A stretch of 64,000 bases of DNA, from NCBI GenBank assembly GCA_964599625.1, contig CAZRGC010000002.1, positions 71,883 to 135,882 on the forward strand. Reading direction: 5' to 3'. The DNA is from an uncultured Gammaproteobacteria bacterium. Lineage in GTDB: Bacteria > Patescibacteriota > Microgenomatia > UBA8517. Positions 32,901 to 58,255 of this stretch are shown here, one piece after another. The position numbers and the translations under genes are program-made. The first letter of the stretch is position 1. Each line of letters starts with the position of its first letter. The notes under the pieces were generated by a model. The model had not been told where the DNA came from, did no database searches, and was given only the letters and a program-made list of their open reading frames with translations.

Positions 32901-35900
32901 CCAAAAATATTCCGTTTCCTGTGAAATTGCCGCTATCTCCACCTGTCCCAAGTTTGATTATATTTCCGGATGTTATGGCACTGGCTGTGGCCTCAAATAC
33001 GTTTCCTGTTGTTATTACTGTTGAGTTAAGTTTGGCAATGTCACCATCTGTGTTTTCGATTCCAAACACTTGGAAAGCCGACCCTGTTGCTGTTCCACCA
33101 ATTGCCAAGTCATAAGAGGAGATAGAAGGCGAGATTATCTTGTTGTTTAGCTGCCAATAAGTTGCGTTTACAGGACAGTTGGCACCACTGCTATCACAGA
33201 CATTAAAACCATTTTGTACAAAAGCGTCTGCGTACACATTGTCCCAGGGCAAGGAAGAACTGCCCAAATCATTAGTTCCTGTTGTAGTTATCGGAATTAA
33301 GTCGTTGTCTTGTGCCACTCGTCCCGTGAATGTAATTGTGTCTGTGATTGCGTTTCCAAGAGTTGTATCGCCATTTACAACCAATGCATTATTAACTGTT
33401 GTTGTTCCTGATGCCGCACCCAAGTTAACTACTGTTGCAGCACCTCCAACGTTCAAAGTTGTTGCATTTGAGTTAAAAAGTGTTGCAGTTCCTGTCGAGC
33501 TTGTTGTTAAGTCGGCACCGTTTACCGCTACATCACCTGCAAAAGTTCCTGCATTGGCATTGATGTTTCCGCTTCCGTCGAAATAATAAGTTGTTGCCCC
33601 GCCTACAGAGAAGCCTGCCGACGACTGCAGATAGTTTGCAACACCTGTGAGTGTTATTGAGTTGGGGAGGTTAACGACACCTGTTGTTGTTATGTCACCA
33701 TTTGCTCCAACTGTAAATCTTGTGTTTCCTGCGTTGTCAAATTTAACAAAGTTTCCTGTAAAACTTCCTCCGCCTGTGTTGTCGAAATCTGCGTATATTC
33801 CGTTACCAGTAAAATTCTGATCTCCGCCTTCACCAAGTTTGACCAAGTTCCCCGAAGTTATTGCGGAAGATGTCGCACTCAACACGTTGCCTGTTGTGAT
33901 ACCTGTTGAATTAAGCGTTGCCAAATTGCCGCCAGAAGTTTCCAAAGCGTAGGCTTGGAATTTGGCTGAAGTTGTTGCGGTTCCACCGACTGCCAAATCA
34001 TGTGTAATATTGGCAGGGGAGAGAACTTTGTTGTTAAGTTGCCAATAATTCACGGATGAACTTGCCGGACAGCCCGATCCAGTTATGTCACAGACTGCGT
34101 TACCGTTTTGATACAGGTTTGTTCCGTATATATTTGCCCATTGAAGAGCGCCACTTCCCAAATCATAAGTGTTGTTGGTTATGGGTAAGACGTTTGTGTT
34201 TACTCTTCCCACAAAAGAAATTCCGTCTGTAATGGCATCGCCCAAAGTTGTGTCACCTTTGACCAAGAGAGAATTGTTGAGGGTTGTCGTTCCGGAAATT
34301 GCCCCGATGTTGATTGCAGTTGCAGCACCTGCAAAGTTAACAGTTGTTGAGTTGGTGTTTATTAACGAAAAACTTGTTTCGTCTGTAGTTATCGACGAGC
34401 CATTTACTGCCAATGCATTATTAACTGTTGTTGTTCCGCTGCCTGCACCAATTCCCAAAGTTGATGCATTTGTGAATAAGTTTCCCGTAGTTTGAGTTGT
34501 TGTCAGGTCACCGCCGTTGACCGCAACATCTCCCGCTGCGGTAACATTCCCAGAAGCGTCAACTAAAAAGTTTGTTGCTCCTGCATTATCAAATCTCAAA
34601 AAGTTTCCTGTAAAACTTCCTCCGCCAGTATTGTCAAAATCTGCATAAATTCCATTTCCTGTAAAGTTTTGATTTCCACCCTCGCCGAGTTTGATTATAT
34701 TTCCTGATGTTATGGCACTGGCTGTTGCTTCAAAAACATTTCCTGATGTGATTACACCAGAAGTGATTTTAGCCAGGTTGCCTGTGGTCTTTTCTACTCC
34801 AAACACCTGGAAGGCCGAACCTGTTGCACTTCCTCCAACTGTCAAATCATAAGTGGAATTGGCAGGGGAGAGAACTTTGTTGTTAAGCTGCCACCATCCT
34901 TGAGTTCCGCTTGTAGCCAGTGAGGTGATGCTCCCGGAACAAGTGAAATTTCCGCTGGATCCGTCTAGCGTACAACCTGTGTCTCCGCTTCCACCCGAGA
35001 GTGTTATTACACCAGCGCCTCCGTTTGGACCAATGTTAAGTGTATTGGCAGCGCCTGCAAAATTAATCGTTGTTGCATTTGTGTTAAAAAGTGTGGCACT
35101 CGAAGCACTTGTTGTAAGGTCGCCTCCGTTAACTGCAACATCTCCGCCAAATGTTCCGGCGTTTGCGTTAAGATCTCCGCTTGCAGAAAAGTTGTATGTA
35201 TCACTTCCTCCAACAGATACACCCTGAGATAATCTTAGGAAGTTGCTAACGCCTGTGATTGTGTTTGTGTTGGGGAAGGTAAATGTCCCAACAGTTGTAA
35301 GGTTGGCTCCATTTGCTGTTAGGGCGGCCACACCCCTGGAATTTATGTTGATATTACCTGTTGTTGATCCACCCAAAGTCAGGTCCGACATGTTTGTTGT
35401 TGCAAGATTGCCATTGCCAGTCAGATATGTGGCAACATTAGCGACAGATCCAGCAATGCTTGCGGTGGGAGTTCCTCCGTTAACTCCTGTAAACGCAAAC
35501 TTTGCGGAGCTTGTGGCATTTGAACCTATGAGAACATCTACTGAATTATTTTTGGGGAAGAGGGCTCCGTTTGTTTGTGTCCAGAATATTGAAGCTGCAG
35601 CCGCTGCAGAAGGGTCAACCCAAGACAAAGCCCCGGCACCGTCAGTTTGCAAAATATAACCTGAACTTTGCGAACCAGGCCAGGTGTAGGGGATTCCGCC
35701 AAAAGTTGTAGTACCACTTACAACCAGATTGTTATTTATTGTTGTACTTCCGGTTCCAGCTCCAAGGCTTAGTGACGTTGCGCCACCGCCAATGTTTAAA
35801 GCTGTCACCCCTGAGTTCAGTAAGTTAAATGTTCCCGATGTTGAAGTTATGTCGCCGCCGTTTACCGCCAAATCGCCTGCTGTTGTTGTATTGCCGTTTG

Positions 35901-38097: not shown

Positions 38098-38103
38098 ATA
38101 TTT

Positions 38104-38628
38104 TTAGTTTCTGATTTCGAAATTTCCTTTGTTCTCATCCATCCAGGCAAGAAATTGTTTGACATCCGAAAGATAGTTTTTGAGTGTGCTTGAACTTACT
38201 TTTTCAGCCTCCAAAAAGGCTTTAAAATCATCAACTATATCAAAAGACATCTTTGGGCTTGGAGTTGATTTTTGTATGGGGGAAATATTTTCTACGCCTT
38301 GTGTAAAATCGTAGTTGGCAATTTGGGTGGCAACCATAAATCTAGCAAAATGACGAAGTGTTGAAAGTCTTCTATTGATTGATCCAACAGGCTGATTATT
38401 TTCTGACATGTAGCTTTTATATTCCTGGGCAATGTTTTGGTTAAGGAAGGGAACGGCTTCTGTTAGGGACTCAACATAAGATCCCAAAGACCTGATTTTA
38501 AGAATTAACCAGCCGGTGAAATGTGACAAATCGCTTCTGTAGTTTTTGTGAGATTTTGGAGAAACGCCCAAAGTGTCAAGGTATTTTGAAAACTCTTTTT
38601 TGACGATGTCGTTATCAAATTTGGGCAT
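38104..38628 (-). CDS. Small cytoplasmic protein built from tandem phage-integrase N-terminal SAM-like domains. No recombinase catalytic domain.
   Basis: SPKSHKNYRSDLSHFTGWL plus SINRRLSTLRHFARFMV form one full domain. SSSTLKNYLSDVKQFLAWM is the first half of a second. The stop TAA is followed after 6 nt, in the same frame, by the ATG of the giant ORF. Confidence 0.6.
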   Translation of the reverse strand: MPKFDNDIVKKEFSKYLDTLGVSPKSHKNYRSDLSHFTGWLILKIRSLGSYVESLTEAVPFLNQNIAQEYKSYMSENNQPVGSINRRLSTLRHFARFMVATQIANYDFTQGVENISPIQKSTPSPKMSFDIVDDFKAFLEAEKVSSSTLKNYLSDVKQFLAWMDENKGNFEIRN

Positions 38629-39022
38629 TTTGTAATTATGGCTAAATTAGACGAATTATACTGATTAGACTATTATTAAAAAGCTACGGGAGGCTGTCAA
38701 GAGGCTGTTTGCTATTCAAAAAAGCTATCACGTTACCTTTATTTTCACAGTGTATGTAGTATAATTACCGCATGGTTTTTACGCATAAATTTCGATACAT
38801 GATATATTTTGAAATACCCGTATAACATGCGAATAAGGCTATTTTTTTGATTTTTCGTAGGCACAAAGTCAATTTTGCGGAAAACCGCGGTTAATTTGAG
38901 AAAAGAAAAAAGTTTGCGGAAAAGGAGGCTGTTAACCTCCAAATCCGAAAGTTTTGTTGCCTTGCCACTATAAACACTACAGGTCGATGTTTTGTATTTG
39001 GTTACGCTTGATAAATAATGTA

Positions 39023-39051
39023 ATTAGCAATCGCCAATTGCGACTGCTAAT
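39023..39051. promoter_or_regulatory. 29-nt near-perfect palindrome in the divergent intergenic region.
   Basis: ATTAGCAATCGC-caatt-GCGACTGCTAAT (12-nt arms, 1 mismatch). Lies about 125 nt upstream of leuS and about 400 nt upstream of the minus-strand giant operon. Confidence 0.3.
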
Positions 39052-39140
39052 AAAAAATGATAGCAATTCGTTCCGAAAACTGGGGAATTATTTTAAAAAT
39101 GAAGCTGTTTTTTGTTAGGCTCAAAAAAAACTTTTAAATG

Positions 39141-39168
39141 TTGATTTTTTTGCGTCAAATACTACAAT
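39141..39168 (+). promoter_or_regulatory. Candidate sigma70-type promoter of leuS.
   Basis: TTGATT (39141-39146), 16-nt spacer, TACAAT (39163-39168). The ATG at 39176 implies a leaderless or near-leaderless transcript. Confidence 0.35.
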
Positions 39169-39175
39169 TTCTACT

Positions 39176-46546: not shown

Positions 46547-46803
46547 AGACTTCTTTTGATTTTTCTTCTGGAGCGCTATTCAACCACACAACTTGACCCT
46601 GGTGTGTTGTTTCTCTAACAACGTCTGCAGGAAAGGGCTCGACCTTCATTTCGTTTTGCCCAGAAATTTCGATTGACATAACAACAATCTACAACTTGAA
46701 ATTTTGCTTGTCAAACCATTGCCAAAAACACTAAAAGGGGCTTGCGTTTTTCACGAAATAATAAGTAAATAAGTATGTTGCAAAGTTGGACATTTGAATA
46801 TAA

Positions 46804-49800
46804 ATGTCCAAGTTTATAAAACACTGCCCAATGAGATATCTAAAGATTGCCCAAGCTGCTCAAAGATTAGGAGTATCCACAAAAACCTTAAGAAGGTGGG
46901 AGAAAAGCGGAATACTCACACCCAGAAGGACTCCGGGAGGCCAAAGAGTTTATCTTGCAAGCTCTATAGAAACCTTTGTAAGGCCGGAGAAACAAACAGG
47001 AAAAACAAAAACAAGATTTGTAGCCAAAACATACGAAGTCAAAAATAGCTTCAATTATAAAAGTTTTGCTTACGGCGGAATTGCGTCGGCATTTGCAGTT
47101 CTTTTGTTCTTTAGTCTTTTTAAAGTTGATTTGAGTTTGAGGCTGCCCCAGGAAAGTTCATCTAACGTATTGGGTGCCAACACACAAAGAAACCCGGTTA
47201 TAGCTTTTGTAGACGATTTGGTGAAGCCTGTATTCGGATTTTTTGCCAATAGCGCCAAAAGGATTGAGCTGGCCCTATTCAGTTTCAATGTTAATCAGGA
47301 TATAAGCCAAGGTCAAACGATTATTCAAACAGCAAGCCAGGTGGGCGGAGGGTCGGAGATAGCAGACAGATCGGTTACTGGTGTAAAGATCGCAATTCAA
47401 ACAGTACTTAACGAAAATATTGCCAGAGGCCAAATCAGCGTGGACAGGTTAGTTTCAAACCTCGTCTTTCCGTCAACATATCTTTTAGATCTCTCAGAAA
47501 TAAAACATACAACAACATCAAATACTGGCTTAATACTTCCAAATACATCAAGTTCATCTCCATCCAAGCCTACAAGCGGTGAAGGATATCTGGCATATGA
47601 CACTTCGGGAAACCAGCTTATCCTTTATAACGGTTCCAACTGGCAGACTATTAGCGGAGGAGGGGGCGGAGGAAGCGGAGATATAACAACTGTCACTGCC
47701 GGGGACGGACTAACCGGCGGGGGTGGCTCAGGAGACCTTACCTTAAACATTGTCGGGGGAAGTGGTTTTTTGGTTTCTGGGGATCAAATTGATTTGGATG
47801 TAACAACTACGGGAACAACATCAACGACATCTTCAAATTCTGGTTTGGAGGTTACAACAGCGGGATTGTCTCTTATGAGAGGTTGTTCCAATACACAAAT
47901 ATTGAAATGGAATGCGAGTACACAGGTGTGGTACTGTGCAGCAGACAATAGCGGAAGTGGCGGATCTTTAGATATAGAAGAGGGTGGAAGCACAGTCGTG
48001 ACCAGCCCAACAGCGATTAACTTTACGGCATCTGAATTTTCTGTCACAGAATCACCAAGTGGAGTCGGTTTGATAGCTATTGATTACGTTAATTCAAAAA
48101 TTAGCAGGTATGATGCCACAGAAGTTCTTACCAACAAAACAATCTCTGCAGGAAGTAACACAATAACAGGTCTTACAAACTCCAACCTTTCCGGAAGTGC
48201 GGGAATAACAAACGCCAACCTCGCAAATTCATCAGTTACCATTAACTCTTCGGGAATCCTCACAGGTGGCGGATCTGTTTCTTTGGGAGGCAATATTACG
48301 CTTGCAGCGACAGAGGCTGACACACTGGCTGCAGTAGTTTCCAGAGGAGCCACCACCACAACTTTAGTTAATTTGAATGGTGGAATAATCTCTCAAGGTG
48401 CTGTTGCAGGAAAAGCGCTTGTGAGAATTGACGAAACTGGGGATCAGAATCTATTGGTTGCAAGCGCTTCAGGAGTTACAAAATTCACATTAGACAGATC
48501 GGGTAATGTTGCAGCCTCCGGAACTGTTACTGGTTCCAACCTCAGCGGCACCAATACAGGTGACCAAACAATCACTTTAACGGGAGATGTAACAGGAAGC
48601 GGAACAGGAAGCTTTGCAACTACGATTGCCACAAACTCAGTTGCACTTACAACAGACACCACAGGTAATTATGTTGCAACAGGAGCCTCGGGGAATGGAG
48701 TTTCTTTGACAGGTGGTGGTTCTGAGGGGGCAACTCTTACCGCTAATCTTGGTGCTTTGACAGGTGATTGGGATCAAACAGGTGCTTTTGATATTGCTCT
48801 CAACAATTCTTCGTCTGAACTCAAGATTTTAGAATCAGGATCAACACCAACCTTGTTCGGCATCTTTGATGTTGGAGATCTGAGCTCATCTGACTCTACA
48901 TTCACTTTCTCTGGGAGTTCTGGTACTGTTTTGACAAGTGCTAACGTTGCATCTGCCCTGTCAGGGTGGGACCAAAATTCCAGTGACGATTTAACAACAG
49001 GCAACTATGGTGCAACCCTCGACTCTGTTTATGTAAATGTTGCCGAGTCGCCAACCTCTGCAGATATTGCAGGAAGTTTTTCGGGAGGACTTACTCTAAA
49101 TTCAAACACAGTTGACGATTCGGAGCTTGTTGATGCACTCACATACACAGGGGCGTTTTCAGTTGGAAATCTTACAATTTCTGACACGAATGTACCTCTT
49201 ACGGGGGCCTCGTTAACTTTCGATTTTAATAATGCCAGCGATAGAACCCTTACAATTGCAAATGCAGGAGCAGGAACTGCAAATTTGTCAGTTGACGGTA
49301 CAATCGCCGCTTCAAACTTCTCAGGTTCATCAAGTGGCACCAATACAGGCGATCAGACTATTACATTAACGGGAGATGTAACAGGAAGTGGAACGGGAAG
49401 CTTTGCAACAACAATTGCAGCCAACTCTGTTGCATTAACAACAGATACGACAGGTAATTATGTTCAAAGCATAACAAACGGAACAGGAATCACAGGAGGC
49501 GATGGTGGCGCAGAAGGATCAACCCTAACATTAGCAGTTGATCAAGCTGCAAATTTTACGTTAACAGGAAATAACACATTTACACCTTCCTCAACAAACG
49601 ATTTAACAATAAATCTGGATGCAGACTCAACGCTTTCAGAAGTTTTCTCAAGTAGCACAAATTCAACAAGTGCAGTGACTCAATCTATAACAAACTCTGC
49701 ATCAAGTGGAACAATTACAGTTAACGGAAACGATATAACTTTGGTAGGAACTGACAATGCAGGCGGTGCTAACACCATTAATGCTTTCAAATTTGAAAAC

Positions 49801-52800
49801 GTTACCGCACACACAAATAACACCTTTAACGGACTAAACTTTGGAACGGGTTATACAAACTTTTTGACCTCGGGAACAATTGCAATCGTTGCCGATGGGA
49901 CAATAACAGGTGCAACAATCTCAGGCGGAAGCAACACATTGTCTAATATTGGTAACTCAAGCCTTACTAACTCATCTATTACTATTAATTCTTCGGGGAT
50001 TTTGACAGGCGGTGGATCGGTTTCCTTGGGTGGAAACATTACACTAACGGCAACCGAGGCTGATACTTTGGCAAGTGTGACTGGGCGCGGTGCTACAACA
50101 TCAACTGCCCTAACACTATCTAATGCATCAAACAGTATCACTGTAGGCACTTTAACAGCAACAGGTGGAACGATTAACGGAACTGTAATTGGTGGATCAA
50201 CACCTGCCGCGGGAACATTTACAACTCTAACCGCGAATGGAGATGTGACACTTGGGGATGCAATAACAGACAACATTACTTTTACAGGGCGTGTGGCACA
50301 GGATAGTGACTTGGTACCAATTGGCACAACCGGGACAAATGATCTGGGAAGTGGATCTCTTCCTTGGGATAACATTTACGCAAATGCAATAACTCAAAAC
50401 GGAAACCTGGTTTGTGACGCAAGCGGCGCCAACTGTCCCGCAGGGGCAGGCTACTGGGGTCAGACTCTTGGCGCGCTTTATGCAAACAACAATACCACAG
50501 ACCTTTTGATCGGTGGTAATGCTACAACTTCTGCCAAGTTTGCATTTACAAATGTATTAACAGGAACTCCAACTGCTTCTATCTCGGGAACTACTGCAAA
50601 TGTCGCGACTTATTTAACTGGTGAGGGGAATTTGGCAACAACAAATATGCAACCTTTGACAATTGGTGGTTCAACTACCGGTTCTGTTCAGCTAAACCCC
50701 AAAGGTTCAACGGGGCTCTTTGTAAGTGGTAGTGGAAATGTAGGAATTGGCACAACATCAAACACTGGCGGGTATGTTCTTGATGTTATCGGACATGCAA
50801 GATCCTCCGGATACTTTTTTGGAGACAATGGGTCGTTTGTATCTTTCACGGCAGGTGGGGCCTATCTTGGTGATTCAAGCTACGCAGCAGGTGGTGGAAT
50901 TGGGTATGGTTCTAGTAGAACGCAAATTTGGTCTGGAAGCGGATTTCCGCTCACGTTTGGAACAGCCGGAACTGAACATATGAGACTTAGTGCTGCAGGT
51001 GGTTTGTCGCTTGGCGCATCTTATTTAACAACTGATGCTGGTGCAGGCAACGCAATTATAACCGGCTCACTTGGTATAGGCACTTCTGGTCCTGATGCAA
51101 AACTCGATTCACTTTCTACTGCCGGTGAGCAGCTAAGGCTTACTTATGCTGACGGGTCGACTTATTCAAGTTTTACAACCAACTCCAGCGGTGATTTAAC
51201 CATTGCACCTTCAGGTGGCGATACGAACATAACAGGCAACTTATCGTCAACAGGGATAGTCACAGGATCTAATTTAAGTGGCACAAACACAGGTGATCAG
51301 ACAATTACCTTAACAGGTGATGTGACTGGAAGCGGAACAGGAAGCTTTGCAACAACAATCTCAGCCAACTCTGTTGAGCTTTCCACCGATACAACCGGCA
51401 ATTACGTGGCAACAGGAGCTTCTGGAAACGGAGTTGCCCTTACCGGTGGAGGCTCTGAAGGTGCAACATTGACTGCTAATCTTGGTGCTTTGACAGGTGA
51501 TTGGGATCAAACGGGGGCATTTGATATTGTTCTTAATAATTCATCATCTGAACTCAAAATCTTAGAATCAGGATCAACGCCAACCTTGTTCGGTATCTTT
51601 GATGTCGGAGATTTAAGTTCATCTGATTCCACATTTACTTTTTCTGGTTCATCCGGAACTGTTTTAACTTCAGCGAACTATGCAGGGACACTTGACTCTG
51701 TTTACGTTAATGTCGCTGAGTCACCTGCGGCTGGGGATGTTGCAGGTAGTTTCTCAGGAGGACTTACTCTAAATTCAAACACCGTCGATGATTCAGAACT
51801 TGTGGATGCTTTGACTTATACAGGTGCTTTTTCGGTGGGTAACCTTACAATTTCAGACACGAGCGTGCCTCTGACTGGGTCTTCTTTCACCTTCGACTTC
51901 AATAACGCCAGCGACAGAACTTTGACAATTGCAAACGCAGGGGCAGGTACTGCAAATTTGTCAGTTGACGGAACAATTTCTGCTTCCAACTTTTCAGGAT
52001 CGTCCAGTGGAACAAACACAGGCGACCAAACAATTACTCTAACAGGTGATGTAACCGGAACAGGAACGGGATCGTTTGCAACAACAATTGCAGCCAACTC
52101 TGTTGCATTAACAACAGATACGACAGGTAATTATGTCCAGTCTATTACGAACGGAACAGGAATAACTGGCGGTGACGGCGGCGGCGAAGGTTCTACTTTA
52201 ACACTTGCAGTTGACCAGGCAGCCAACTTTACCTTAACAGGTAATAATGCATTTACCCCATCATCTACAAATGATCTTACGATCAATTTAGATGCAGACT
52301 CAACTCTTGCTGAGGTGTTCACGAGTGGAACTAATTCAACAAGCGCAAATACAGTATCTTTAACAAATTCAGCATCAAGCGGAACAGTTGGTATCAAAGG
52401 CCTCGACTTTACATTTGTGGGAACCGACAACGCAGGTGGAGCAAACACAATTACAGGTATAAATTTTGGTGACGCAACAGCACACACCAACAACACTTAC
52501 AATGGAATTACATTTGGAACAGGGTATAACAACTTCCTGACCTCTGGAACTATAAACATTGCCGCGAATGGAACTATAACAGGCGCAACAATATCAGGTG
52601 GAAGCAACACCCTTTCCGATATCGACAACTCAAGCCTTACTAACTCATCTATTACTATTAATTCTTCTGGGATTTTGACAGGCGGCGGATCGGTTTCCTT
52701 GGGTGGAAACATCACACTCACCGCAACCGAAGCAGATACTTTGGCAGCAGTTGTGTCACGCGGCGCCGCAACCACAACTCTCGTAAACTTGAACGGCGGA

Positions 52801-55800
52801 ATAATTTCCCAAGGAGCAGTTACAGGAAAAGCTTTGGTAAGGCTGGATGAGACTGGCGATCAAAATATATTTGTCGCCTCTGCTGCGGGCGCTTTCAGAT
52901 TTGCCGTTGCCAACGACGGAGCTTTGGAGCTAAGAAACTCTGAAACAATATCGAACTCATCAAATGGTGCCATTGCTTTTACAGGTGTTGGTGGATCCAA
53001 CAATGGTGCTTTGGAGATAGACCTTGAGACGAATTCGGTACCTACTTTGACATCTTCAACTGACACGTCAATCGGAATTGACGAAAACCTTCAGTTCATT
53101 GGCGCTCAGTCTATAACCACTTCAACAGGAGCTTTGACTTTGCAACCTGCTTCAGGGAGCAATTTAAATGTAACGCTTTCAGGAACGGGGGATTTTGCCG
53201 TAAATACAAATCAGCTTTATGTTGATACTAGCACGGGGTTAGTGGGAATCGGAACTTCGTCATTAATCTCCGGCGCAGAATTAACCGTAAAGGCTGCAAG
53301 CGGCAACTCTGATTTAGTATTGACTGAGAGCGGAGGTACTTATTCTTGGGACTTTTTCGTTGAAACTGGTGGCAGGGCGGGTTGGTATGACATTACCAAT
53401 AATAGAAATCCTTTTTACATGGAAGCTGGTGCGGCAAACAACTCCTTCTATATTGATTCAAGTGGTGCAGTTGGCATTGGCAAAGCTGATCCTGAACACA
53501 AACTCCAAGTAGAAAGTAGCACTGTTGGTAAGGCTTTGGTTGTAATAAATGATACAGATTCCGATCAGAATTTGTTTGTAGCATCTTCTGCGGGCAGTTT
53601 TAGGTTCTCAATTGCGAACGATGGGACTTTGTCACTTAGAAACTCCGAGACTGTTTCCAATTCAACAAACGGCTCAATTACACTTTCTGACTCGGGTGGG
53701 CAATCTGTAACATTTGACTTGGACGCAACTAACCCGACACTCACAAGTTCAACTGGAACATTTGAGGTTGGCTCAACACTCACAGCGGGAACTGTTGATA
53801 TCAATGGCGGTGCAATTGACGGTACTACAATTGGCGGATCATCTGCCGCTTCCGGAACATTTACAACTCTGACATCAACCGGCACTGTTGACCTCTCAAG
53901 TGATTCAGGCGCAGATACAATTACAATCGGTCAGAGTGGAACAACGGATGACACTGTAACAATCGCTGGTGATATATCTTTGACTGATGATCAATGGAGT
54001 GTGTCTGCGGCCGGTGTTGGTAGCTTTATAACCGGCTCTTCTATTGGTTCACTCACTTTTACCACAAACAATATTGCCGACTCGGGCGCGTTGACAATAA
54101 GATCTGCGACTTCAAACGCCTTAACACTTGACTCTGGAACAACAGGTACCGTCAATTTGGGAACCGGTAACAATGCAAAAACCATAGCAATCGGCACAGG
54201 AAATGCAGGTAATACAATAAATGTTGGCACAGACAACACTGTTTCGGACACGATTACGATTGGTAGTGCCTTGGATAACGTAGCAATTACCGGCGATGAT
54301 TGGTCCATAACGTCTGCCGGTGTTCTCACGGTAGCCAGTTGTACCGGCTGTGGTGGTGGGGGTGGAACATTGGACTCTGTTTACGAAACAGGCAATGCTT
54401 TAACAACATCTGACAATAGAGATGTAGCACTTGTATTTGCAGACACAACAACCGATTCCAACTTCAATATTGATCTTGAGGCGGATAACACTGTTACTAT
54501 TACAAGAAATGCCACAGCCTCCACAGAAACACCGTCTCAACTTGTACTTCTGGAAAATGCAGATGCTGACGTAACAGTTACTGCAGGGTTAAGCATTTTG
54601 GAATCGGGTGGAAACATTGGAACAGGGTTAAATATTGGTTCTGGTATGACAATCGGAATAAATGCCAACGCAAACACCATAGAGAATATTGGCAATTCAG
54701 GAACAGATTTTGATTCCTCAGGAGGTCTTACCCTGGCTTCTACACTCACACTAACCAACAACACCATTACTTGTACAGGATGTGTGGACGCAACCGACTT
54801 GGCTGCAAATTCGGTTGATGATTCCGAACTTGCGGACACACTGAGTTACACCGGTACTTTGACAATTGCTTCAAATGCGCTGGCCGTTAACTCTGATTCT
54901 ATTACTGCAGACGGCGCAACTCTTACCATAAATGCAGCAGGGAACGTGGATGTTCAAGACGCACTTAATGCAGATTCAATCACCTCTGATGCCGGTGTAT
55001 CAATTGCCGCAGGGCAAAGTTATACAGGCGCCGGTGCAGTTAGTGTAACTTCGGCAACGGGAGCAAACGCTTTAACTTTGGATTCTGGTTCTACTGGTAA
55101 TGTCAACCTTGGAACGGGTAATAATGCAAAAACCATAGCAATCGGCACAGGGAATGCAGGCAATACAATAAACTTGGGCACCAACGACACCGTCAGCGAC
55201 ACCATTGCAATCGGAAGTGCTTTGGACAACGTTTCGATTACAGGCGATCAGTGGTCTATTACAGATGCAGGTGTTCTTACTGTTGCAAGTTGTAGCGGTT
55301 GTGGAGGCGGAGGATCAACATTGCAAGCTGCATATGATGCTTCAAGCGGTAATACAATATTAACCACAACAGGCAGAAACATTGCATTCACTCTGGGTGA
55401 GGTTGCATCACCGACATCCTTCACGCTGACAAATCAAGATACTGCCGGAACAACTGCTTTTGGGCTAACAAATTCTATTGCATCGGGAACACTAACAAAC
55501 GGTATTTTAATAGATCAAACAGGTGCAGGAACACTTACGTCTGCCATTAAAATAGTGGAAACAGCAGGAACAATAACCGATGGTCTTGTTATCTCGGGAA
55601 CTTTATCCAACATTCTTAATAGTGACTCGATTGATATAACGGGTGCGGGTGCAATTACGGGAGCTACAGGAGTCGGAACAACAACTTTAACATCAACCGG
55701 GACAACTAATATCGGAAGCAATTCGGGAGCTGTAACAATCGATTCAACAGGCTCTTTAACTATTAACGATACTGTAGTTTCGTTAGCAAATCAGTCTACA

Positions 55801-58254
55801 GATTTTGAAATAATCGACAACGCAGCTTCGGCTTTTACAATTACCCAAGGTTCAAATGAATATTTTGGAATAACTACAAGTAACGGTGCTCCAGTTGTAA
55901 ATCTAAACACACCTGAAGCAACGGGTACTATCAACATTGGTTCAACGAACTTCGCAAGAACCATAAACTTGGGGACTGGCACAGGTGCAGACGCAATCAA
56001 TATCGGCACAGGAGCAACAACCGCAGACACTCTGACATTCGGAAACACAGGTGTTGCAACAACATTCACATTTAACTCTGGTGCAACAACACAAACACCA
56101 GTCACATTTAATCTGGATGCTTTGACACAGGGAACGGGAATTGACCTTTCTCTGGATGGACTTACAACTGGAACCGGTTTGAAAATTGACGACAATACGG
56201 GAGCAGGGCTCACATCAGGGACTTTGGTATATGTAAATTCAGTGTCGACAGCCTTGACTTCTCCCACAAACGGTGGATCTTTGGCCTATTTTAATTGGAA
56301 TCCTGCAAGCACAACAAGCGCAACAGGTGACTTGTTCAGGATCAATATTGGTTCGAATGGAAGTACTTCCGGTAATTTGTTCAATATTACAGACAACGGA
56401 TCAACACTTTTTTCGGTGTCAGAAAACTTAATTACATCTGCGCTTCCGCACAGTTTTTCGGCCGTTGGCGACGTGGCGATATCTTACGACTTGGTATTCA
56501 CCAATCAAACATCATCATTGATTGACAGCTATGGTCCGTTAACGATTAGGGCTGGTGAAAGTTTTGAAAACAACAATCTTACTCTTACAACATTTGGAAC
56601 AGGTGCGATAATTGCAGACACAAAGTTTTCGTTCGATACACAGTTAACTTTGGGTGACAACACAACACCTTCTGTTACATCCGGAAACTATTATATTGAG
56701 GCCAATTCTACAAACAGACTCGTTACAAACTTTACCAATGGTACTGCGGGTCAAGTTATATTTATTGAAGTAGGCACTGCAAATTTCGACCTTGACTGTA
56801 CAAGCTCAAGTATAAACTGTGGCACAACCGACATGACCGGGCTTGCAGCAGGCGACCAAATATTTTTGATTTACGACGGCTCAACTTGGAATTTATTGGG
56901 CTGGATGGATGCATCGGCCAACAACAACGACAACACAGACGGGGTTGATATAGCAGAGTTCTTCCCAAGTTTGCAGAATCTTACTGCTGGTGAAGTTGTA
57001 AAGATTGATATAAATAATCCAGAACACGTTGTCAGGTCTGCTTCAGCTTACGAAAATATGGTGGTGGGAATCGTATCTACTCAGCCAGGTATAACTTTGG
57101 GAAGTAATAATGGCAATGCTTATGCAATAGCACTTGCCGGACGTGTTCCTGTTCAAATATCAAACCTTTCAGAAAATATTTCCCCCGGTGACTATGTAAC
57201 AACATCAACTCTTTCCGGAAAAGCTATGAAAGCAACGGGTACAGGGAGGGTGATTGGACAGGCGCTTGAAAACTGGAGCCCGTCCTCTGGGAAGTCGGAG
57301 ATAGTTGTATTTATTAATAATAGTTGGTTTGAAAACATGCCGACGATTGACCAAGGTGGCAACTTAAGTGTGGACTTGAGTGCCGAAAACATAATTGCTA
57401 CGAACATCAAGACATCAAGAATTCAGCCGTCTGAGGGGAAAACTGATATCTCGATACAAATTGGCAGCAGTTCGACTCCTTCCGGAAGACTTAAAATTGA
57501 AAATGTTTTGGGTGATACAGTTTTTGAAGTCGACGATGGGGGAGACGCAACAATATCTGGAGATCTGCATACCGTTGGGGACTTGTATGCAACTAACGTT
57601 CACTCTCAGAATATTGAAGATATCGAGGCGTTATTGGCCCAAGTTCAATCGGATCAGGCACTTTTGTTGGCGTCAAATTCCGGAATATTCAGCGCAACGA
57701 CTTCAGCGAGCCTTAATGACCTGATGACATCTGATTTATATGTGACAAACCAGGCTGCGGTTTATTCACTCTCTGTCAGTTCCAGTTTGGCAGTGGGTGG
57801 TGATTTGGTAATTCAAAGTCTTGATTCTTCGGTAAACACTTTGGTGTCTCCGCTTAAGATTCAATCACTGGCACTGGCACCGGTAGAGATAATGGGAGGA
57901 CTTATTAAGATTGATACATTGGGTAATGCAGAAATTGAAGGAAACCTTGCTGTTAAGGGTGCCCTTAGCACCTCAGGCATAATAATCACCGGAGACACTG
58001 CAGGCAAAGCAAAAGTTCCCGAAGGTGAAATTGAAGTTGTACTTCAAAACCCGAATATAAAAGAGGGGACATTGGTATTTGTGACTCCAACATCACCAAC
58101 CAGTAACGGTCTATATATCAAAAGCCAGGAGGTGGGCAGTGTTACTGTGGGCTTTGTTCTTGCAGAGGACTTTGATGTAACGTTTAATTGGTGGATTGTG
58201 GGTACGAGTGGTCAGGCTGAGGCATCGGGTTCAGGCGTCCTGGTTAATCCTTAA
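46804..58254 (+). CDS. Giant (3816 aa) membrane-anchored surface protein. It has an N-terminal MerR-type HTH, one TM helix and a T/G/N/S-rich extracellular region. It is paralogous to the 20914..38097 product.
   Basis: The N-terminus LKIAQAAQRLGVSTKTLRRWEKSGILTPRRTPGGQRVY is a MerR/excisionase-like HTH. TM is YGGIASAFAVLLFFSLF. One copy of ITFTGRVAQDSDLVPIGTTGTNDLGSGSLPWDNIY...CDASGANCPAG. The C-terminal ~330 aa are colinear with the other giant and end in FNWWIV. Confidence 0.85.
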   Translation: MSKFIKHCPMRYLKIAQAAQRLGVSTKTLRRWEKSGILTPRRTPGGQRVYLASSIETFVRPEKQTGKTKTRFVAKTYEVKNSFNYKSFAYGGIASAFAVLLFFSLFKVDLSLRLPQESSSNVLGANTQRNPVIAFVDDLVKPVFGFFANSAKRIELALFSFNVNQDISQGQTIIQTASQVGGGSEIADRSVTGVKIAIQTVLNENIARGQISVDRLVSNLVFPSTYLLDLSEIKHTTTSNTGLILPNTSSSSPSKPTSGEGYLAYDTSGNQLILYNGSNWQTISGGGGGGSGDITTVTAGDGLTGGGGSGDLTLNIVGGSGFLVSGDQIDLDVTTTGTTSTTSSNSGLEVTTAGLSLMRGCSNTQILKWNASTQVWYCAADNSGSGGSLDIEEGGSTVVTSPTAINFTASEFSVTESPSGVGLIAIDYVNSKISRYDATEVLTNKTISAGSNTITGLTNSNLSGSAGITNANLANSSVTINSSGILTGGGSVSLGGNITLAATEADTLAAVVSRGATTTTLVNLNGGIISQGAVAGKALVRIDETGDQNLLVASASGVTKFTLDRSGNVAASGTVTGSNLSGTNTGDQTITLTGDVTGSGTGSFATTIATNSVALTTDTTGNYVATGASGNGVSLTGGGSEGATLTANLGALTGDWDQTGAFDIALNNSSSELKILESGSTPTLFGIFDVGDLSSSDSTFTFSGSSGTVLTSANVASALSGWDQNSSDDLTTGNYGATLDSVYVNVAESPTSADIAGSFSGGLTLNSNTVDDSELVDALTYTGAFSVGNLTISDTNVPLTGASLTFDFNNASDRTLTIANAGAGTANLSVDGTIAASNFSGSSSGTNTGDQTITLTGDVTGSGTGSFATTIAANSVALTTDTTGNYVQSITNGTGITGGDGGAEGSTLTLAVDQAANFTLTGNNTFTPSSTNDLTINLDADSTLSEVFSSSTNSTSAVTQSITNSASSGTITVNGNDITLVGTDNAGGANTINAFKFENVTAHTNNTFNGLNFGTGYTNFLTSGTIAIVADGTITGATISGGSNTLSNIGNSSLTNSSITINSSGILTGGGSVSLGGNITLTATEADTLASVTGRGATTSTALTLSNASNSITVGTLTATGGTINGTVIGGSTPAAGTFTTLTANGDVTLGDAITDNITFTGRVAQDSDLVPIGTTGTNDLGSGSLPWDNIYANAITQNGNLVCDASGANCPAGAGYWGQTLGALYANNNTTDLLIGGNATTSAKFAFTNVLTGTPTASISGTTANVATYLTGEGNLATTNMQPLTIGGSTTGSVQLNPKGSTGLFVSGSGNVGIGTTSNTGGYVLDVIGHARSSGYFFGDNGSFVSFTAGGAYLGDSSYAAGGGIGYGSSRTQIWSGSGFPLTFGTAGTEHMRLSAAGGLSLGASYLTTDAGAGNAIITGSLGIGTSGPDAKLDSLSTAGEQLRLTYADGSTYSSFTTNSSGDLTIAPSGGDTNITGNLSSTGIVTGSNLSGTNTGDQTITLTGDVTGSGTGSFATTISANSVELSTDTTGNYVATGASGNGVALTGGGSEGATLTANLGALTGDWDQTGAFDIVLNNSSSELKILESGSTPTLFGIFDVGDLSSSDSTFTFSGSSGTVLTSANYAGTLDSVYVNVAESPAAGDVAGSFSGGLTLNSNTVDDSELVDALTYTGAFSVGNLTISDTSVPLTGSSFTFDFNNASDRTLTIANAGAGTANLSVDGTISASNFSGSSSGTNTGDQTITLTGDVTGTGTGSFATTIAANSVALTTDTTGNYVQSITNGTGITGGDGGGEGSTLTLAVDQAANFTLTGNNAFTPSSTNDLTINLDADSTLAEVFTSGTNSTSANTVSLTNSASSGTVGIKGLDFTFVGTDNAGGANTITGINFGDATAHTNNTYNGITFGTGYNNFLTSGTINIAANGTITGATISGGSNTLSDIDNSSLTNSSITINSSGILTGGGSVSLGGNITLTATEADTLAAVVSRGAATTTLVNLNGGIISQGAVTGKALVRLDETGDQNIFVASAAGAFRFAVANDGALELRNSETISNSSNGAIAFTGVGGSNNGALEIDLETNSVPTLTSSTDTSIGIDENLQFIGAQSITTSTGALTLQPASGSNLNVTLSGTGDFAVNTNQLYVDTSTGLVGIGTSSLISGAELTVKAASGNSDLVLTESGGTYSWDFFVETGGRAGWYDITNNRNPFYMEAGAANNSFYIDSSGAVGIGKADPEHKLQVESSTVGKALVVINDTDSDQNLFVASSAGSFRFSIANDGTLSLRNSETVSNSTNGSITLSDSGGQSVTFDLDATNPTLTSSTGTFEVGSTLTAGTVDINGGAIDGTTIGGSSAASGTFTTLTSTGTVDLSSDSGADTITIGQSGTTDDTVTIAGDISLTDDQWSVSAAGVGSFITGSSIGSLTFTTNNIADSGALTIRSATSNALTLDSGTTGTVNLGTGNNAKTIAIGTGNAGNTINVGTDNTVSDTITIGSALDNVAITGDDWSITSAGVLTVASCTGCGGGGGTLDSVYETGNALTTSDNRDVALVFADTTTDSNFNIDLEADNTVTITRNATASTETPSQLVLLENADADVTVTAGLSILESGGNIGTGLNIGSGMTIGINANANTIENIGNSGTDFDSSGGLTLASTLTLTNNTITCTGCVDATDLAANSVDDSELADTLSYTGTLTIASNALAVNSDSITADGATLTINAAGNVDVQDALNADSITSDAGVSIAAGQSYTGAGAVSVTSATGANALTLDSGSTGNVNLGTGNNAKTIAIGTGNAGNTINLGTNDTVSDTIAIGSALDNVSITGDQWSITDAGVLTVASCSGCGGGGSTLQAAYDASSGNTILTTTGRNIAFTLGEVASPTSFTLTNQDTAGTTAFGLTNSIASGTLTNGILIDQTGAGTLTSAIKIVETAGTITDGLVISGTLSNILNSDSIDITGAGAITGATGVGTTTLTSTGTTNIGSNSGAVTIDSTGSLTINDTVVSLANQSTDFEIIDNAASAFTITQGSNEYFGITTSNGAPVVNLNTPEATGTINIGSTNFARTINLGTGTGADAINIGTGATTADTLTFGNTGVATTFTFNSGATTQTPVTFNLDALTQGTGIDLSLDGLTTGTGLKIDDNTGAGLTSGTLVYVNSVSTALTSPTNGGSLAYFNWNPASTTSATGDLFRINIGSNGSTSGNLFNITDNGSTLFSVSENLITSALPHSFSAVGDVAISYDLVFTNQTSSLIDSYGPLTIRAGESFENNNLTLTTFGTGAIIADTKFSFDTQLTLGDNTTPSVTSGNYYIEANSTNRLVTNFTNGTAGQVIFIEVGTANFDLDCTSSSINCGTTDMTGLAAGDQIFLIYDGSTWNLLGWMDASANNNDNTDGVDIAEFFPSLQNLTAGEVVKIDINNPEHVVRSASAYENMVVGIVSTQPGITLGSNNGNAYAIALAGRVPVQISNLSENISPGDYVTTSTLSGKAMKATGTGRVIGQALENWSPSSGKSEIVVFINNSWFENMPTIDQGGNLSVDLSAENIIATNIKTSRIQPSEGKTDISIQIGSSSTPSGRLKIENVLGDTVFEVDDGGDATISGDLHTVGDLYATNVHSQNIEDIEALLAQVQSDQALLLASNSGIFSATTSASLNDLMTSDLYVTNQAAVYSLSVSSSLAVGGDLVIQSLDSSVNTLVSPLKIQSLALAPVEIMGGLIKIDTLGNAEIEGNLAVKGALSTSGIIITGDTAGKAKVPEGEIEVVLQNPNIKEGTLVFVTPTSPTSNGLYIKSQEVGSVTVGFVLAEDFDVTFNWWIVGTSGQAEASGSGVLVNP
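46831..46960 (+). other. MerR-family helix-turn-helix DNA-binding domain at the cytoplasmic N-terminus of the giant protein.
   Basis: MRYLKIAQAAQRLGVSTKTLRRWEKSGILTPRRTPGGQRVYLASSI fits the MerR HTH pattern (..a...GVs..TLR.WE..GLl.P.R...g.R.Y). About 40 aa separate it from the TM helix. Confidence 0.6.
48540..50080 (+). repeat. Intragenic duplicated block, copy 1 (about 1.5 kb).
   Basis: Copy 1 encodes GTNTGDQTITLTGDVTGSGTGSFATTIA...INSSGILTGGGSVSLGGNITLTATEADTLA. It is colinear with 51280..52760 and has identical DNA patches of 50-60 nt. Confidence 0.7.
51280..52760 (+). repeat. Intragenic duplicated block, copy 2.
   Basis: Same module order as 48540..50080. About 85-95% nt identity with fully identical patches, e.g. 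acaacaattgcagccaactctgttgcattaacaacagatacgacaggtaattatgt. Confidence 0.7.
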
Positions 58255-58255
58255 T

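What the first reader, a model, noticed from the sequence alone, without database searches (positions are those of the whole stretch)
46804..47130. MerR-type HTH fused to a TM anchor and a 3700-aa extracellular region: candidate membrane-tethered one-component surface sensor/regulator
The first ~50 aa of the second giant protein (LKIAQAAQRLGVSTKTLRRWEKSGILTPRRTPGGQRVY) match the MerR/excisionase HTH signature. There is no in-frame alternative start between the HTH and the TM helix (GGIASAFAVLLFFSLF). The DNA-binding domain is therefore an integral, cytoplasmic part of a surface giant. The other giant gene carries a different DNA-binding-type domain (integrase SAM-like) at the same position. 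The architecture of a cytoplasmic DNA-binding domain, a single TM and a huge extracellular part is analogous to ToxR/CadC-type membrane-bound transcription factors. That raises the possibility that contact through the giant fibre is coupled directly to DNA binding or nucleoid tethering. I am not aware of MerR-HTH giant adhesin fusions having been described.
Basis: partly seen in the sequence, partly recalled or inferred. Interest (0 to 1): 0.85.

Follow-up and report, generated by a model that had tools for sequence, protein, structure and literature searches.

The report
Membrane-anchored DNA-binding giant surface protein
A 3,800-residue surface protein of a tiny uncultured bacterium starts with a real DNA-binding domain on the cytoplasmic side of the membrane. 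It belongs to a large, undescribed family whose genes almost all carry the same repeated DNA motif at their own promoters, which suggests these surface proteins control their own production.

Summary
The giant ORF begins with a MerR-type winged helix-turn-helix (HTH; Pfam MerR, 53 bits). A basic linker follows, then the only hydrophobic helix of the protein, then about 3,700 residues. The true start is ATG 46831, not 46804, and the HTH is still included.

The fold is BldC/CarH-like: it has no coiled-coil helix and no effector domain, so this is not a classical MerR regulator. The architecture recurs widely. Close relatives in Patescibacteria (Microgenomates) genomes carry 1-13 HTH copies, one transmembrane (TM) helix and a variable ectodomain of 100 to more than 3,300 aa.

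New here is a conserved dyad, TTGGACA-N12-TGTCCAA (46786-46811), just downstream of the predicted -10 element. TTGGACA is the most enriched 7-mer upstream of family members (28 of 47 loci, 56-fold). It occurs as 10-bp direct repeats or as 19-20-bp inverted pairs, and it fits the TnnACA site of the CarH DNA-binding domain.

Best reading: an autoregulated transmembrane transcription regulator. Binding, the sign of regulation and any sensing are untested.

The other giant has a real integrase SAM-like domain, but a conserved in-frame TAA splits it.

The parts
46742..46771 (+). Predicted promoter: -35 TTGCGT (46742-46747), an 18-nt spacer, and -10 TAAATA (46766-46771)
   Evidence: Read from the sequence. 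It has the same geometry as the CTTGACA-N18/19-TAAAT/TAATAT promoters upstream of family members. It lies in a block that is 89.5% identical to L001. No transcription start site has been mapped.
46786..46811 (+). Dyad TTGGACA-N12-TGTCCAA, the candidate operator for the gene's own HTH; it overlaps the ATG at 46804
   Evidence: With its flanks it is 97% identical to L001, against 57% for the neighbouring non-coding DNA. It is unique in the window. The same half-site is the top enriched 7-mer upstream of family members.
46824..46829 (+). CTGCCC element 1 nt before the start codon; function unknown
   Evidence: CTGCC lies within 45 nt upstream of the HTH in 37 of 49 family loci. CTGCCCA is enriched 40-fold. 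It does not precede other genes of the window.
46831..58254 (+). Revised gene for giant protein 2 (3,807 aa plus stop)
   Evidence: The start is conserved in L001, and a 1-nt indel upstream breaks the frame from ATG 46804.
46837..46983 (+). MerR-type winged HTH of the BldC/CarH kind, with a beta-alpha-alpha-beta-beta-alpha order of elements
   Evidence: Pfam. AlphaFold2 pLDDT at least 93 over model residues 1-50. Foldseek best match BldC, rmsd 1.4-1.5 A, followed by RacA and CarH. PDB sequence hits to CarH (E~1e-7) and BldC (E~1e-4). dN/dS 0.105.
46984..47064 (+). Basic linker with no predicted structure and no coiled-coil helix
   Evidence: pLDDT 51-59 and no helix in the model. The MerR_1 profile is matched only at positions 2-45 of 69.
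47065..47124 (+). Single transmembrane helix, predicted N-terminus inside the cell
   Evidence: Hydropathy scan and charge bias.
47125..58251 (+). Ectodomain of about 3,700 aa: Thr/Gly/Ser/Asn-rich repeats and a C-terminal module shared with giant 1
   Evidence: Translation. No Pfam family matches it. The C-terminal ~300 aa are 42% identical to the C-terminus of giant 1.
38104..38628 (-). Integrase SAM-like ORF (174 aa) in the same frame as giant 1, ending in a TAA at 38104-38106
   Evidence: Phage_int_SAM_1, E=3e-14. The in-frame TAA followed by 2 codons is conserved in L001. Read through, one complete SAM-like domain (profile positions 1-83) spans the stop, E=5e-18.
20914..38097 (-). Giant 1 (5,727 aa): N-terminal second half of a SAM-like domain, TM helix at aa ~78-100, giant ectodomain
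   Evidence: An uninterrupted relative (two SAM-like domains, one TM helix, an ectodomain and the same NWW(V/I) C-terminus; 1,368 aa) lies next to an HTH-TM gene in L204.

Best explanation
Giant 2 is a single-pass membrane protein with its N-terminus inside the cell. Its first ~50 residues form a MerR-type winged HTH of the BldC/CarH kind, which has no dimerisation helix and no effector domain.

It is one member of a large Patescibacteria family built as 1-13 HTH copies, one TM helix and a variable ectodomain. In architecture the family is a transmembrane transcription regulator.

The HTH most likely recognises TTGGACA half-sites. In the window these form the dyad at 46786-46811, just downstream of the predicted -10 element, at roughly +5 to +35 of the transcript. 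The membrane-anchored protein would then feed back on transcription of its own gene. Given the position of the sites, the likely effect is repression.

Because the HTH hangs on a flexible linker rather than a rigid coiled coil, it can occupy 10-bp direct repeats or 19-20-bp inverted pairs on one face of the DNA.

Shown here: the domain, the fold, the TM helix, recurrence of the architecture, purifying selection, and the enrichment, geometry and conservation of the motif.

Inferred: that this HTH binds that motif, the sign of regulation, the topology, and any link to what the ectodomain touches.
For: Domain and fold:
- Pfam, AlphaFold2, Foldseek and PDB sequence searches agree.
- In the HMMER alignment to BldC, three of the four side-chain DNA contacts named in the BldC paper are conserved. 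These are BldC Thr27, Arg30 (the base contact) and Lys33. Thr29 aligns with Arg (PMC5859096).

Family:
- An exhaustive HMMER search found 2,223 proteins at E<=1e-3.
- Among the best 150, 148 have the HTH, and 89 of these have a TM helix right after the last HTH copy. Of those 89, 14 are at least 1,000 aa long and 6 at least 2,000 aa.
- In representative genomes, 48 of the best 80 loci encode an HTH plus a TM helix. All of them that carry a lineage name are Patescibacteria. 21 are at least 1,000 aa, and 34 are cut by a contig or locus end.

Selection: dN/dS of the HTH is 0.105.

Cis-element:
- TTGGACA is the top 7-mer in the 150 nt upstream of the HTH (28 of 47 loci, 56-fold).
- Half-site density is 8.5 per kb there against 0.21 per kb in 610 kb of flanking DNA.
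- A paired site with at most 2 mismatches is present in 32 of 48 loci, against about 2% of random windows.
- Spacing is ordered: direct repeats 10 nt apart in 22 of 37 cases, inverted pairs mostly 19-20 nt apart, and no everted pairs. Arrays reach 6 copies.
- The first half-site starts 4-18 nt after the -10 element.
- The window's dyad is 97% conserved against L001 although dS is above 1.2.
- A JGI metagenome contig (the same locus read as L202 and L204), reached through a protein hit rather than by the DNA scans, shows the same order: promoter, two direct half-sites and one inverted, CTGCCC, ATG. It has no other half-site in 6.7 kb.

Specificity by homology: CarH, the closest solved relative by sequence, binds tandem direct repeats nnnnTnnACAn (PMC9304148). 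TGGACA fits TnnACA.
Against: - No binding data exist and no transcription start site has been mapped. The promoter assignment rests on consensus matching.
- The loci were selected through the peptide pattern [GA]VS[TSV][KS]TLRRW, so the shared motif may hold only for this sub-family. A tandem-HTH member, L201, lacks exact half-sites. Six of 48 loci show no site.
- The reverse test failed. The exact palindrome occurs in at least 120 metagenome stretches, and only 8 of 124 sites lie next to such an HTH gene. Most of the rest are in unrelated, virus-like contexts.
- The dyad is transcribed and can fold as a hairpin (z=-2.4).
- Nothing shows that the ectodomain modulates DNA binding.
Confidence: 0.55

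Rival explanations
1. Structural tether. The HTH anchors DNA to the membrane or to the base of the fibre, as RacA anchors the chromosome at the cell pole, and has no regulatory role.
For: RacA is among the best fold matches. The cells are tiny, so DNA is always close to the membrane. The giant gene needs minutes of coupled transcription, translation and membrane insertion.
Against: Paired sites are rare in 610 kb of flanking DNA. They sit at the family's own promoters or at a divergent neighbouring gene. That pattern fits promoter control better than chromosome anchoring. A tether confined to the protein's own gene remains possible.
Confidence: 0.15
2. The TTGGACA repeats belong to something else. 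They could be a leader RNA element or the site of another regulator of surface-protein genes. In that case the HTH has other, unknown targets.
For: The dyad lies in the predicted 5' leader and folds. A second conserved leader element, CTGCCC, is unexplained. The palindrome also occurs in unrelated contexts.
Against: At least 10 loci have direct repeats, which cannot form hairpins. 5 of 21 dyads would carry an A-C mismatch in the RNA. The stem sequence is invariant rather than covarying. No Rfam family matches. What the target genes share is the HTH-TM module, not the ectodomain. The motif fits the CarH-type half-site.
Confidence: 0.15
3. Released regulator. The membrane form is inactive, and proteolysis near the TM helix frees the HTH, which then acts as a soluble factor on contact or stress.
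For: This mechanism is known for other membrane-bound regulators (my own knowledge). The flexible basic linker would be accessible to proteases.
Against: No site-2 protease gene was looked for or seen in the window. There is no evidence either way. This is a variant of the best explanation rather than an alternative to DNA binding.
Confidence: 0.1
4. Vestige or plain anchor. The HTH is a relic of a mobile element (IS607 or excisionase type) or merely a cytoplasmic stopper for a signal anchor, and no longer binds DNA.
For: The nearest non-Patescibacteria relatives are IS607-like proteins of about 208 aa.
Against: dN/dS is 0.105. The residues aligned to three of the four BldC side-chain DNA contacts are conserved. 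The architecture is family-wide and includes up to 13 tandem copies. No resolvase domain is present.
Confidence: 0.05

Closest known systems
Transmembrane transcription regulators (ToxR, CadC, TcpP; census of Demey et al. 2023, PMC10269533)
   Same: A cytoplasmic N-terminal DNA-binding domain, a single TM helix and an outside domain, all in one polypeptide. The census counts 386 MerR, 350 MerR_1 and 151 HTH_17 members.
   Different: ToxR and CadC use an OmpR-type winged helix and have small periplasmic sensors. Here the domain is MerR-type and the outside part reaches about 3,700 aa of fibre-like repeats. The predicted target is the protein's own promoter. The lineage (Patescibacteria) is not mentioned in that paper.
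BldC of Streptomyces (PDB 6ama, 6amk; PMC5859096)
   Same: Best structural match (rmsd 1.4-1.5 A, 36-39% identity). Both are a MerR-like winged HTH without a coiled coil or an effector domain. BldC binds variable numbers of direct repeats head to tail, which parallels the 10-bp arrays found here.
   Different: BldC is a free 68-residue protein with an AATT-type site. Here the domain is fused to a TM helix and an ectodomain, the half-site is TTGGACA, and inverted pairs are also used.
CarH/LitR DNA-binding domain (PDB 5c8d/5c8e, 3whp)
   Same: Closest solved sequence (E~1e-7), with a nearly identical wing, PRRTPGG.R.Y. CarH binds tandem direct repeats with the motif TnnACA on one face of the DNA (PMC9304148). 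TGGACA fits that motif.
   Different: CarH is soluble and oligomerises through a B12-binding domain. Its repeats are 11 bp apart, against 10 bp here.
RacA of Bacillus subtilis (PDB 5i44)
   Same: A MerR-like winged HTH that ties DNA to a membrane-associated structure.
   Different: RacA is soluble, binds DivIVA through a coiled coil, and has many sites near the replication origin. Here the sites are at the gene's own promoter.
Classical MerR regulators (MerR, CueR, SoxR)
   Same: The winged HTH.
   Different: Here there is no long dimerisation helix and no effector domain, and the sites are not inside a 19-20-bp promoter spacer.

Membership tests
Classical MerR family | N-terminal winged HTH matching the MerR profiles | tested here: met
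   PF00376 53 bits, PF13411 38.7 bits, both above cut-off. Fold matches to MtaN, CueR, SoxR and CadR.
Classical MerR family | Long alpha-helix forming an antiparallel coiled-coil dimer | tested here: not met
   The model has no helix after residue 50, and the linker has pLDDT 51-59. The MerR_1 profile is matched only at positions 2-45 of 69.
Classical MerR family | C-terminal effector-binding domain | tested here: not met
   The HTH is followed by a 27-residue linker, a TM helix and an ectodomain without any Pfam family.
Classical MerR family | Dyad operator inside an over-long (19-20 bp) -35/-10 spacer | tested here: not met
   Half-sites start 4-18 nt after the predicted -10 element. Spacers are 18-19 nt but hold no dyad. 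The promoters are predicted, not mapped.
BldC family | MerR-like winged HTH lacking a coiled coil and an effector domain | tested here: met
   NCBIfam HTH_BldC is the best hit, but at 35.7 bits against a cut-off of 77.
BldC family | Small stand-alone protein | tested here: not met
   The domain is fused to a TM helix and about 3,700 aa.
BldC family | Head-to-tail binding to direct repeats | not testable with these tools
   Candidate 10-bp direct-repeat arrays exist upstream of relatives. The window itself has an inverted pair.
Transmembrane transcription regulators | A DNA-binding domain and at least one TM region in one protein (the criterion of PMC10269533) | tested here: met
Transmembrane transcription regulators | Controls transcription while in the membrane | not testable with these tools
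   Only a candidate operator at the gene's own promoter was found.
ToxR/CadC-like receptors | OmpR-type (Trans_reg_C) winged-helix DNA-binding domain | tested here: not met
   No Trans_reg_C hit; the domain is MerR-type.
IS607-type transposase or excisionase | MerR-like HTH followed by a serine-recombinase domain, or a stand-alone excisionase | tested here: not met
   No PF00239 match in the window protein. The IS607 model scores 29 bits against a cut-off of 110. Relatives without a TM helix are about 208 aa long; similar ~208-aa proteins in the protein search carry PF00239.
RacA-type chromosome anchor | Many chromosomal sites and a coiled coil that binds DivIVA | tested here: not met
   No coiled coil. 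Paired sites are rare outside the family's promoter regions in 610 kb. Whole genomes were not scanned.
Integrase SAM-like domain (giant 1) | A complete Phage_int_SAM_1 domain within one polypeptide | tested here: inconclusive
   Giant 1 alone scores 14.8 bits, below the cut-off. The domain is complete (profile positions 1-83, E=5e-18) only if the conserved in-frame TAA is read through. It is uninterrupted in the relative in L204.

The most novel reading that the evidence does not exclude
The N-terminal DNA-binding domain acts in cis while the protein is still being made. The HTH is the first part to leave the ribosome and emerges a few tens of base pairs from its own operator. It binds there while the 11-kb gene is still being transcribed, translated and inserted into the membrane. 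This would tie gene, ribosome and membrane together and allow one round of synthesis at a time.

A second family carries integrase SAM-like domains ahead of a TM helix and a large ectodomain. Taken together, the two families suggest that Patescibacteria surface giants generally carry their own DNA 'address' domain.
Probability: 0.15. Interest if true: 0.85.

Novelty: new variant of a known kind. Interest (0 to 1): 0.66.

Why it matters
Patescibacteria have very few recognisable regulators, and their giant surface proteins are thought to mediate attachment to hosts. How these proteins are controlled is unknown.

The family described here joins a DNA-binding domain directly to surface proteins, and each gene carries a conserved, easily testable site at its own promoter. 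That gives a concrete handle on gene regulation in an uncultured lineage. The handle consists of a defined protein domain of about 50 aa, a defined half-site (TTGGACA) and a defined geometry.

The family would also extend transmembrane transcription regulators to proteins more than ten times larger than any studied so far.

The split SAM-like domain of the second giant raises a separate question: stop-codon read-through or assembly of a split domain.

Tried and rejected
- A word-indexed homologue search with aa 1-285 gave one hit only. The exhaustive HMMER search was needed.
- Exact look-ups of the window's proteins on contigs found nothing.
- The first alignment was too diverse for the locus scan.
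- Reverse test, from motif to gene, in metagenomes: at least 120 stretches were hit, but only 8 of 124 sites lie next to an HTH gene. Most sites belong to unrelated repeated families. This test is not informative about specificity within Patescibacteria.
- RNA hairpin reading of the dyad: considered, and judged less likely because of the direct-repeat variants, the A-C mismatches and the invariant stem. No Rfam family matches.
- The 39023-39051 palindrome as an operator: it is not the TTGGACA motif, its inner arms are not conserved in L001, and no Rfam family matches.
- A search for further TTGGACA dyads in the window found none beyond chance.
- A homologue search with the N-terminus of giant 1 gave no hits, and BLASTP against the upstream SAM-like ORF was not significant.
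- Literature searches for MerR-giant fusions in Patescibacteria found no description. The library is incomplete, so this is not proof of absence.
- Tandem-HTH member L201 has no exact half-sites upstream.
Full report
**The observation.** The window holds a 3,816-codon ORF at 46804..58254.
- Residues 14-50 match Pfam MerR (PF00376, E=3e-14, 53 bits against a cut-off of 28.2). MerR_1 (38.7 bits) and HTH_17 (36.2 bits) are also above their cut-offs.
- NCBIfam ranks BldC-family, HspR, IS607 and CarH HTH models highest, all below their full-length cut-offs.
- A hydropathy scan finds one hydrophobic segment in the whole protein, at residues ~88-107. Residues 1-89 hold 20 K/R against 4 D/E, while the 93 residues after the helix hold 7 against 8. 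The N-terminus is therefore predicted to be cytoplasmic.
- In-frame start candidates are ATG aa1 (directly after a TAA), ATG aa10, and then TTG aa101 inside the helix.

**Gene model.** A scan of representative genomes returned L001, a syntenic relative with the same local gene order, running from the giant 1 N-terminus through the SAM-like ORF, LeuRS, ComEA and ComEC to giant 2.
- Its ORF starts at MRYLKIAQ, the equivalent of aa10.
- The DNA alignment shows a 1-nt indel between the two ATGs, so the equivalent of ATG 46804 is out of frame there.
- The start is therefore ATG 46831. The HTH still lies inside the protein.
- Against L001 the HTH is 85% identical, with dN/dS 0.105 at dS 1.25. The linker (0.22), TM helix (0.19) and ectodomain (0.09-0.13) are also constrained.

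**Fold.** An AlphaFold2 model built on 40 sequences gives pLDDT of at least 93 for model residues 1-50, with a beta-alpha-alpha-beta-beta-alpha order of elements. Beyond that the model shows nothing structured.
- Foldseek against the PDB puts BldC first (rmsd 1.4-1.5 A over 48-50 residues, 36-39% identity). RacA, CarH and classical MerR proteins follow.
- By sequence the best solved relatives are CarH/LitR (E~1e-7) and BldC (E~1e-4). The wing PRRTPGG.R.Y is almost identical to that of CarH.
- In the BldC alignment, Thr27, Arg30 (the base contact) and Lys33 of BldC are conserved, while Thr29 aligns with Arg. These are four DNA-contacting residues named in PMC5859096.
- There is no coiled-coil helix and no effector domain. 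The domain is MerR-type, but the protein is not a classical MerR regulator.

**Family.** An exhaustive HMMER search with residues 1-161 found 2,223 proteins at E<=1e-3.
- Of the best 150, 148 carry the HTH. Most have two tandem copies (129), and some have up to 8 by my threshold (HMMER reports 13 matched stretches in P0004).
- 89 have a single TM helix right after the last copy. Of these, 14 are at least 1,000 aa long and 6 at least 2,000 aa, up to 3,356 aa.
- One of these proteins is named by NCBI as a 'MerR family DNA-binding transcriptional regulator' of Candidatus Daviesbacteria.
- In representative genomes, 48 of the best 80 loci encode an HTH followed by a TM helix at residues ~75-250 and a long C-terminal part. 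34 are cut by a contig or locus end, 21 are at least 1,000 aa and 8 at least 2,000 aa.
- Where the record names a lineage it is Patescibacteria: Shapiro-, Ames-, Levy-, Woese- and Beckwithbacteria, and one Saccharibacteria. Many records are third-party MAGs titled 'uncultured Gammaproteobacteria'. These include a 0.81-Mb chromosome, so I take the label to be a placeholder; this is an inference.
- The 31 loci without a TM helix include proteins of about 208 aa from Massilia and Psychrobacter. Similar ~208-aa proteins in the protein search carry a resolvase domain, so I read them as IS607-like.
- Ectodomains are diverse and mostly unannotated. Among 67 members there are 7 with SH3_3, 2 with Peptidase_S74 and 1 with Peptidase_G2.

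**A conserved cis-element.** The 112 nt before ATG 46831 are 89.5% identical to L001. A dyad with its flanks (46781-46816) is 97% identical. The adjacent non-coding stretch is 57% identical, and synonymous sites are saturated.
- The dyad is TTGGACA-N12-TGTCCAA at 46786-46811, and it is unique in the window.
- The pattern TTRGACA-N(4-18)-TGTCYAA occurs 28 times in 1.07 Mb (the 80 loci plus the window). About 20 of these lie 2-66 nt upstream of the HTH.
- An unbiased 7-mer count makes TTGGACA the top word in the 150 nt upstream of the HTH (28 of 47 loci, 56-fold). The next words are the -35-like CTTGACA (25 loci), variants of the half-site, and CTGCCCA.
- Half-site density is 8.5 per kb there, against 0.21 per kb in the other 610 kb.
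- A paired site with at most 2 mismatches is present in 32 of 48 HTH-TM loci, in 2 of 31 loci without a TM helix (both cut by a contig end), and in about 2% of random windows.
- Half-sites come in two arrangements. Direct repeats are 10 nt apart in 22 of 37 cases, with up to 6 copies. Inverted pairs are mostly 19-20 nt apart. No everted pairs occur.
- Where a promoter is recognisable (TTGACA, 18-19 nt, TAAAT or TAATAT), the first half-site begins 4-18 nt after the -10 element, at or just after the expected transcription start.
- A JGI metagenome contig (the same locus read as L202 and L204), reached through a protein hit rather than by the DNA scans, shows the same order: promoter, two direct half-sites and one inverted, CTGCCC, ATG. 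It has no other half-site in 6.7 kb.
- Secondary dyads 400-700 nt upstream lie in front of a divergently transcribed, conserved secreted protein, which is followed by ATP synthase genes.

**DNA site or RNA hairpin?** The dyad would be transcribed and folds (z=-2.4). Four points argue against an RNA element:
- Many loci have direct repeats, which cannot pair.
- 5 of 21 dyads would carry an A-C mismatch in the RNA.
- The stem is invariant in sequence rather than covarying.
- No Rfam family matches.

The one-helical-turn spacing fits proteins bound on one face of the DNA.

**Who binds it?**
- What the genes share is the HTH-TM module, not the ectodomain.
- CarH, the closest characterised DNA-binding domain, binds tandem direct repeats of nnnnTnnACAn on one face of the DNA (PMC9304148), and TGGACA fits TnnACA.
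- BldC, the closest fold, binds variable numbers of direct repeats head to tail (PMC5859096).
- I therefore infer that the HTH binds these repeats, that is, autoregulation. Because the sites lie at about +5 to +35, I infer repression.

Both are inferences, and three caveats apply:
- The loci were selected through the recognition-helix pattern VS.KTLRRW.
- A tandem-HTH member (L201) lacks exact sites.
- The reverse scan of metagenomes was uninformative. At least 120 stretches were hit, only 8 of 124 sites were next to such a gene, and most lay in unrelated virus-like families.

**What is known.** Transmembrane transcription regulators are an established class. A census of 50,302 of them lists MerR (386), MerR_1 (350) and HTH_17 (151) types, but it does not mention Patescibacteria (PMC10269533). 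My literature searches found no description of MerR-type giants in this lineage. Public annotation calls the fragments 'MerR family transcriptional regulator', 'excisionase family DNA binding protein' or 'helix-turn-helix domain-containing protein'. I rate this a new variant of a known kind.

**The other giant.**
- Alone, the N-terminus of giant 1 is a sub-threshold SAM-like match (14.8 bits, profile positions 41-83).
- The upstream 174-aa ORF is a strong SAM-like protein whose second domain stops at profile position ~35.
- The two ORFs are in the same frame, separated by one TAA and two codons, and the same is true in L001.
- Read through, one complete Phage_int_SAM_1 domain (profile positions 1-83, E=5e-18) spans the stop.
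- In L204 a 1,368-aa protein has two uninterrupted SAM-like domains, a TM helix at ~393, an ectodomain and the same NWW(V/I) C-terminus. It lies directly upstream of an HTH-TM gene.
- A second family of surface proteins with a cytoplasmic DNA-binding-type domain therefore exists. In the window it is either a split gene or expressed by read-through.

**Verdict.** The regulatory reading is plausible, and there is now a specific, testable operator. Sensing and tethering remain speculation.

Noticed in passing
window 38097-38628 (-); L001 1-700 (-); L204 5547-9653: The SAM-like ORF and giant 1 are in one frame, separated by a TAA conserved in L001. The stop splits a single Phage_int_SAM_1 domain. 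In L204 the equivalent protein is uninterrupted: two SAM-like domains, a TM helix and an ectodomain. The window's version could be expressed by read-through, could be a split domain, or could be a recent break.
   Followed up: partly
window 46509-46679 (-): A small ORF (56 aa) divergent from giant 2 and overlapping the end of ArgRS. It is conserved in L001, with 3-nt indels and a shared core GQVVWL.SAPE.K. It is probably a real small gene.
   Followed up: partly
window 46824-46829; upstream of HTH-TM genes in L001-L077 and L202: CTGCC(C) lies 1-4 nt before the start codon in 37 of 49 family loci, and CTGCCCA is enriched 40-fold. It does not precede other genes of the window, which show no Shine-Dalgarno motif. 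Its function is unknown.
   Followed up: partly
window 38629-39175: The intergenic region between the SAM-like ORF and LeuRS has blocks nearly identical to L001. These are two TTAGAC copies flanking a TATAAT just upstream of the SAM-like ORF, a TGTAGTATAAT promoter-like box, and two TTTGCGGAAAA repeats. Of the 39023-39051 palindrome, only the outer arms TTAGCA/TGCTAA are conserved. No Rfam family matches.
   Followed up: partly
L039, L059, L015, L025, L054, L060, L013, L010: In other Microgenomates the HTH-TM gene lies divergent to a conserved secreted protein of ~250-300 aa, followed by ATP synthase genes. A second TTGGACA dyad sits in front of that secreted-protein gene.
   Followed up: partly
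L093, L119, L130, L134, L143, L153, L177, L182, L196; L083, L104, L108, L122, L147, L162, L183: The same palindrome (AAGTTGGACA-N-TGTCCAASTT) recurs in unrelated metagenome contigs. It lies ~145-170 nt upstream of zinc-finger-like genes (METLGNT...) and usually ~38 nt (241 nt in L104) upstream of MAIKKHDFKS-type genes. These may be viral promoter elements.
   Followed up: no
window 20914-21850 and 57400-58254; 49980-50845 and 30870-31690: Giants 1 and 2 share a C-terminal module of ~300 aa (42% identity) and an internal module of ~300 aa (54%). Giant 3 (58196-63193) shares a Laminin_G_3 region with giant 1.
   Followed up: partly
L202/L204 10001-15895; L013 7856-10302: In some relatives the HTH-TM ORF ends after ~210-260 aa, and a large ORF of the same repeat type follows within 60-200 nt. 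These are either split genes or frameshifts, present in two independent samples for L202 and L203.
   Followed up: no
L201 2830-3000: A tandem-HTH member lacks TTGGACA. It has GTTAGC/GTTTAGG/GTTAGAC repeats ~13 nt apart upstream, which may be a variant half-site for a diverged recognition helix.
   Followed up: no
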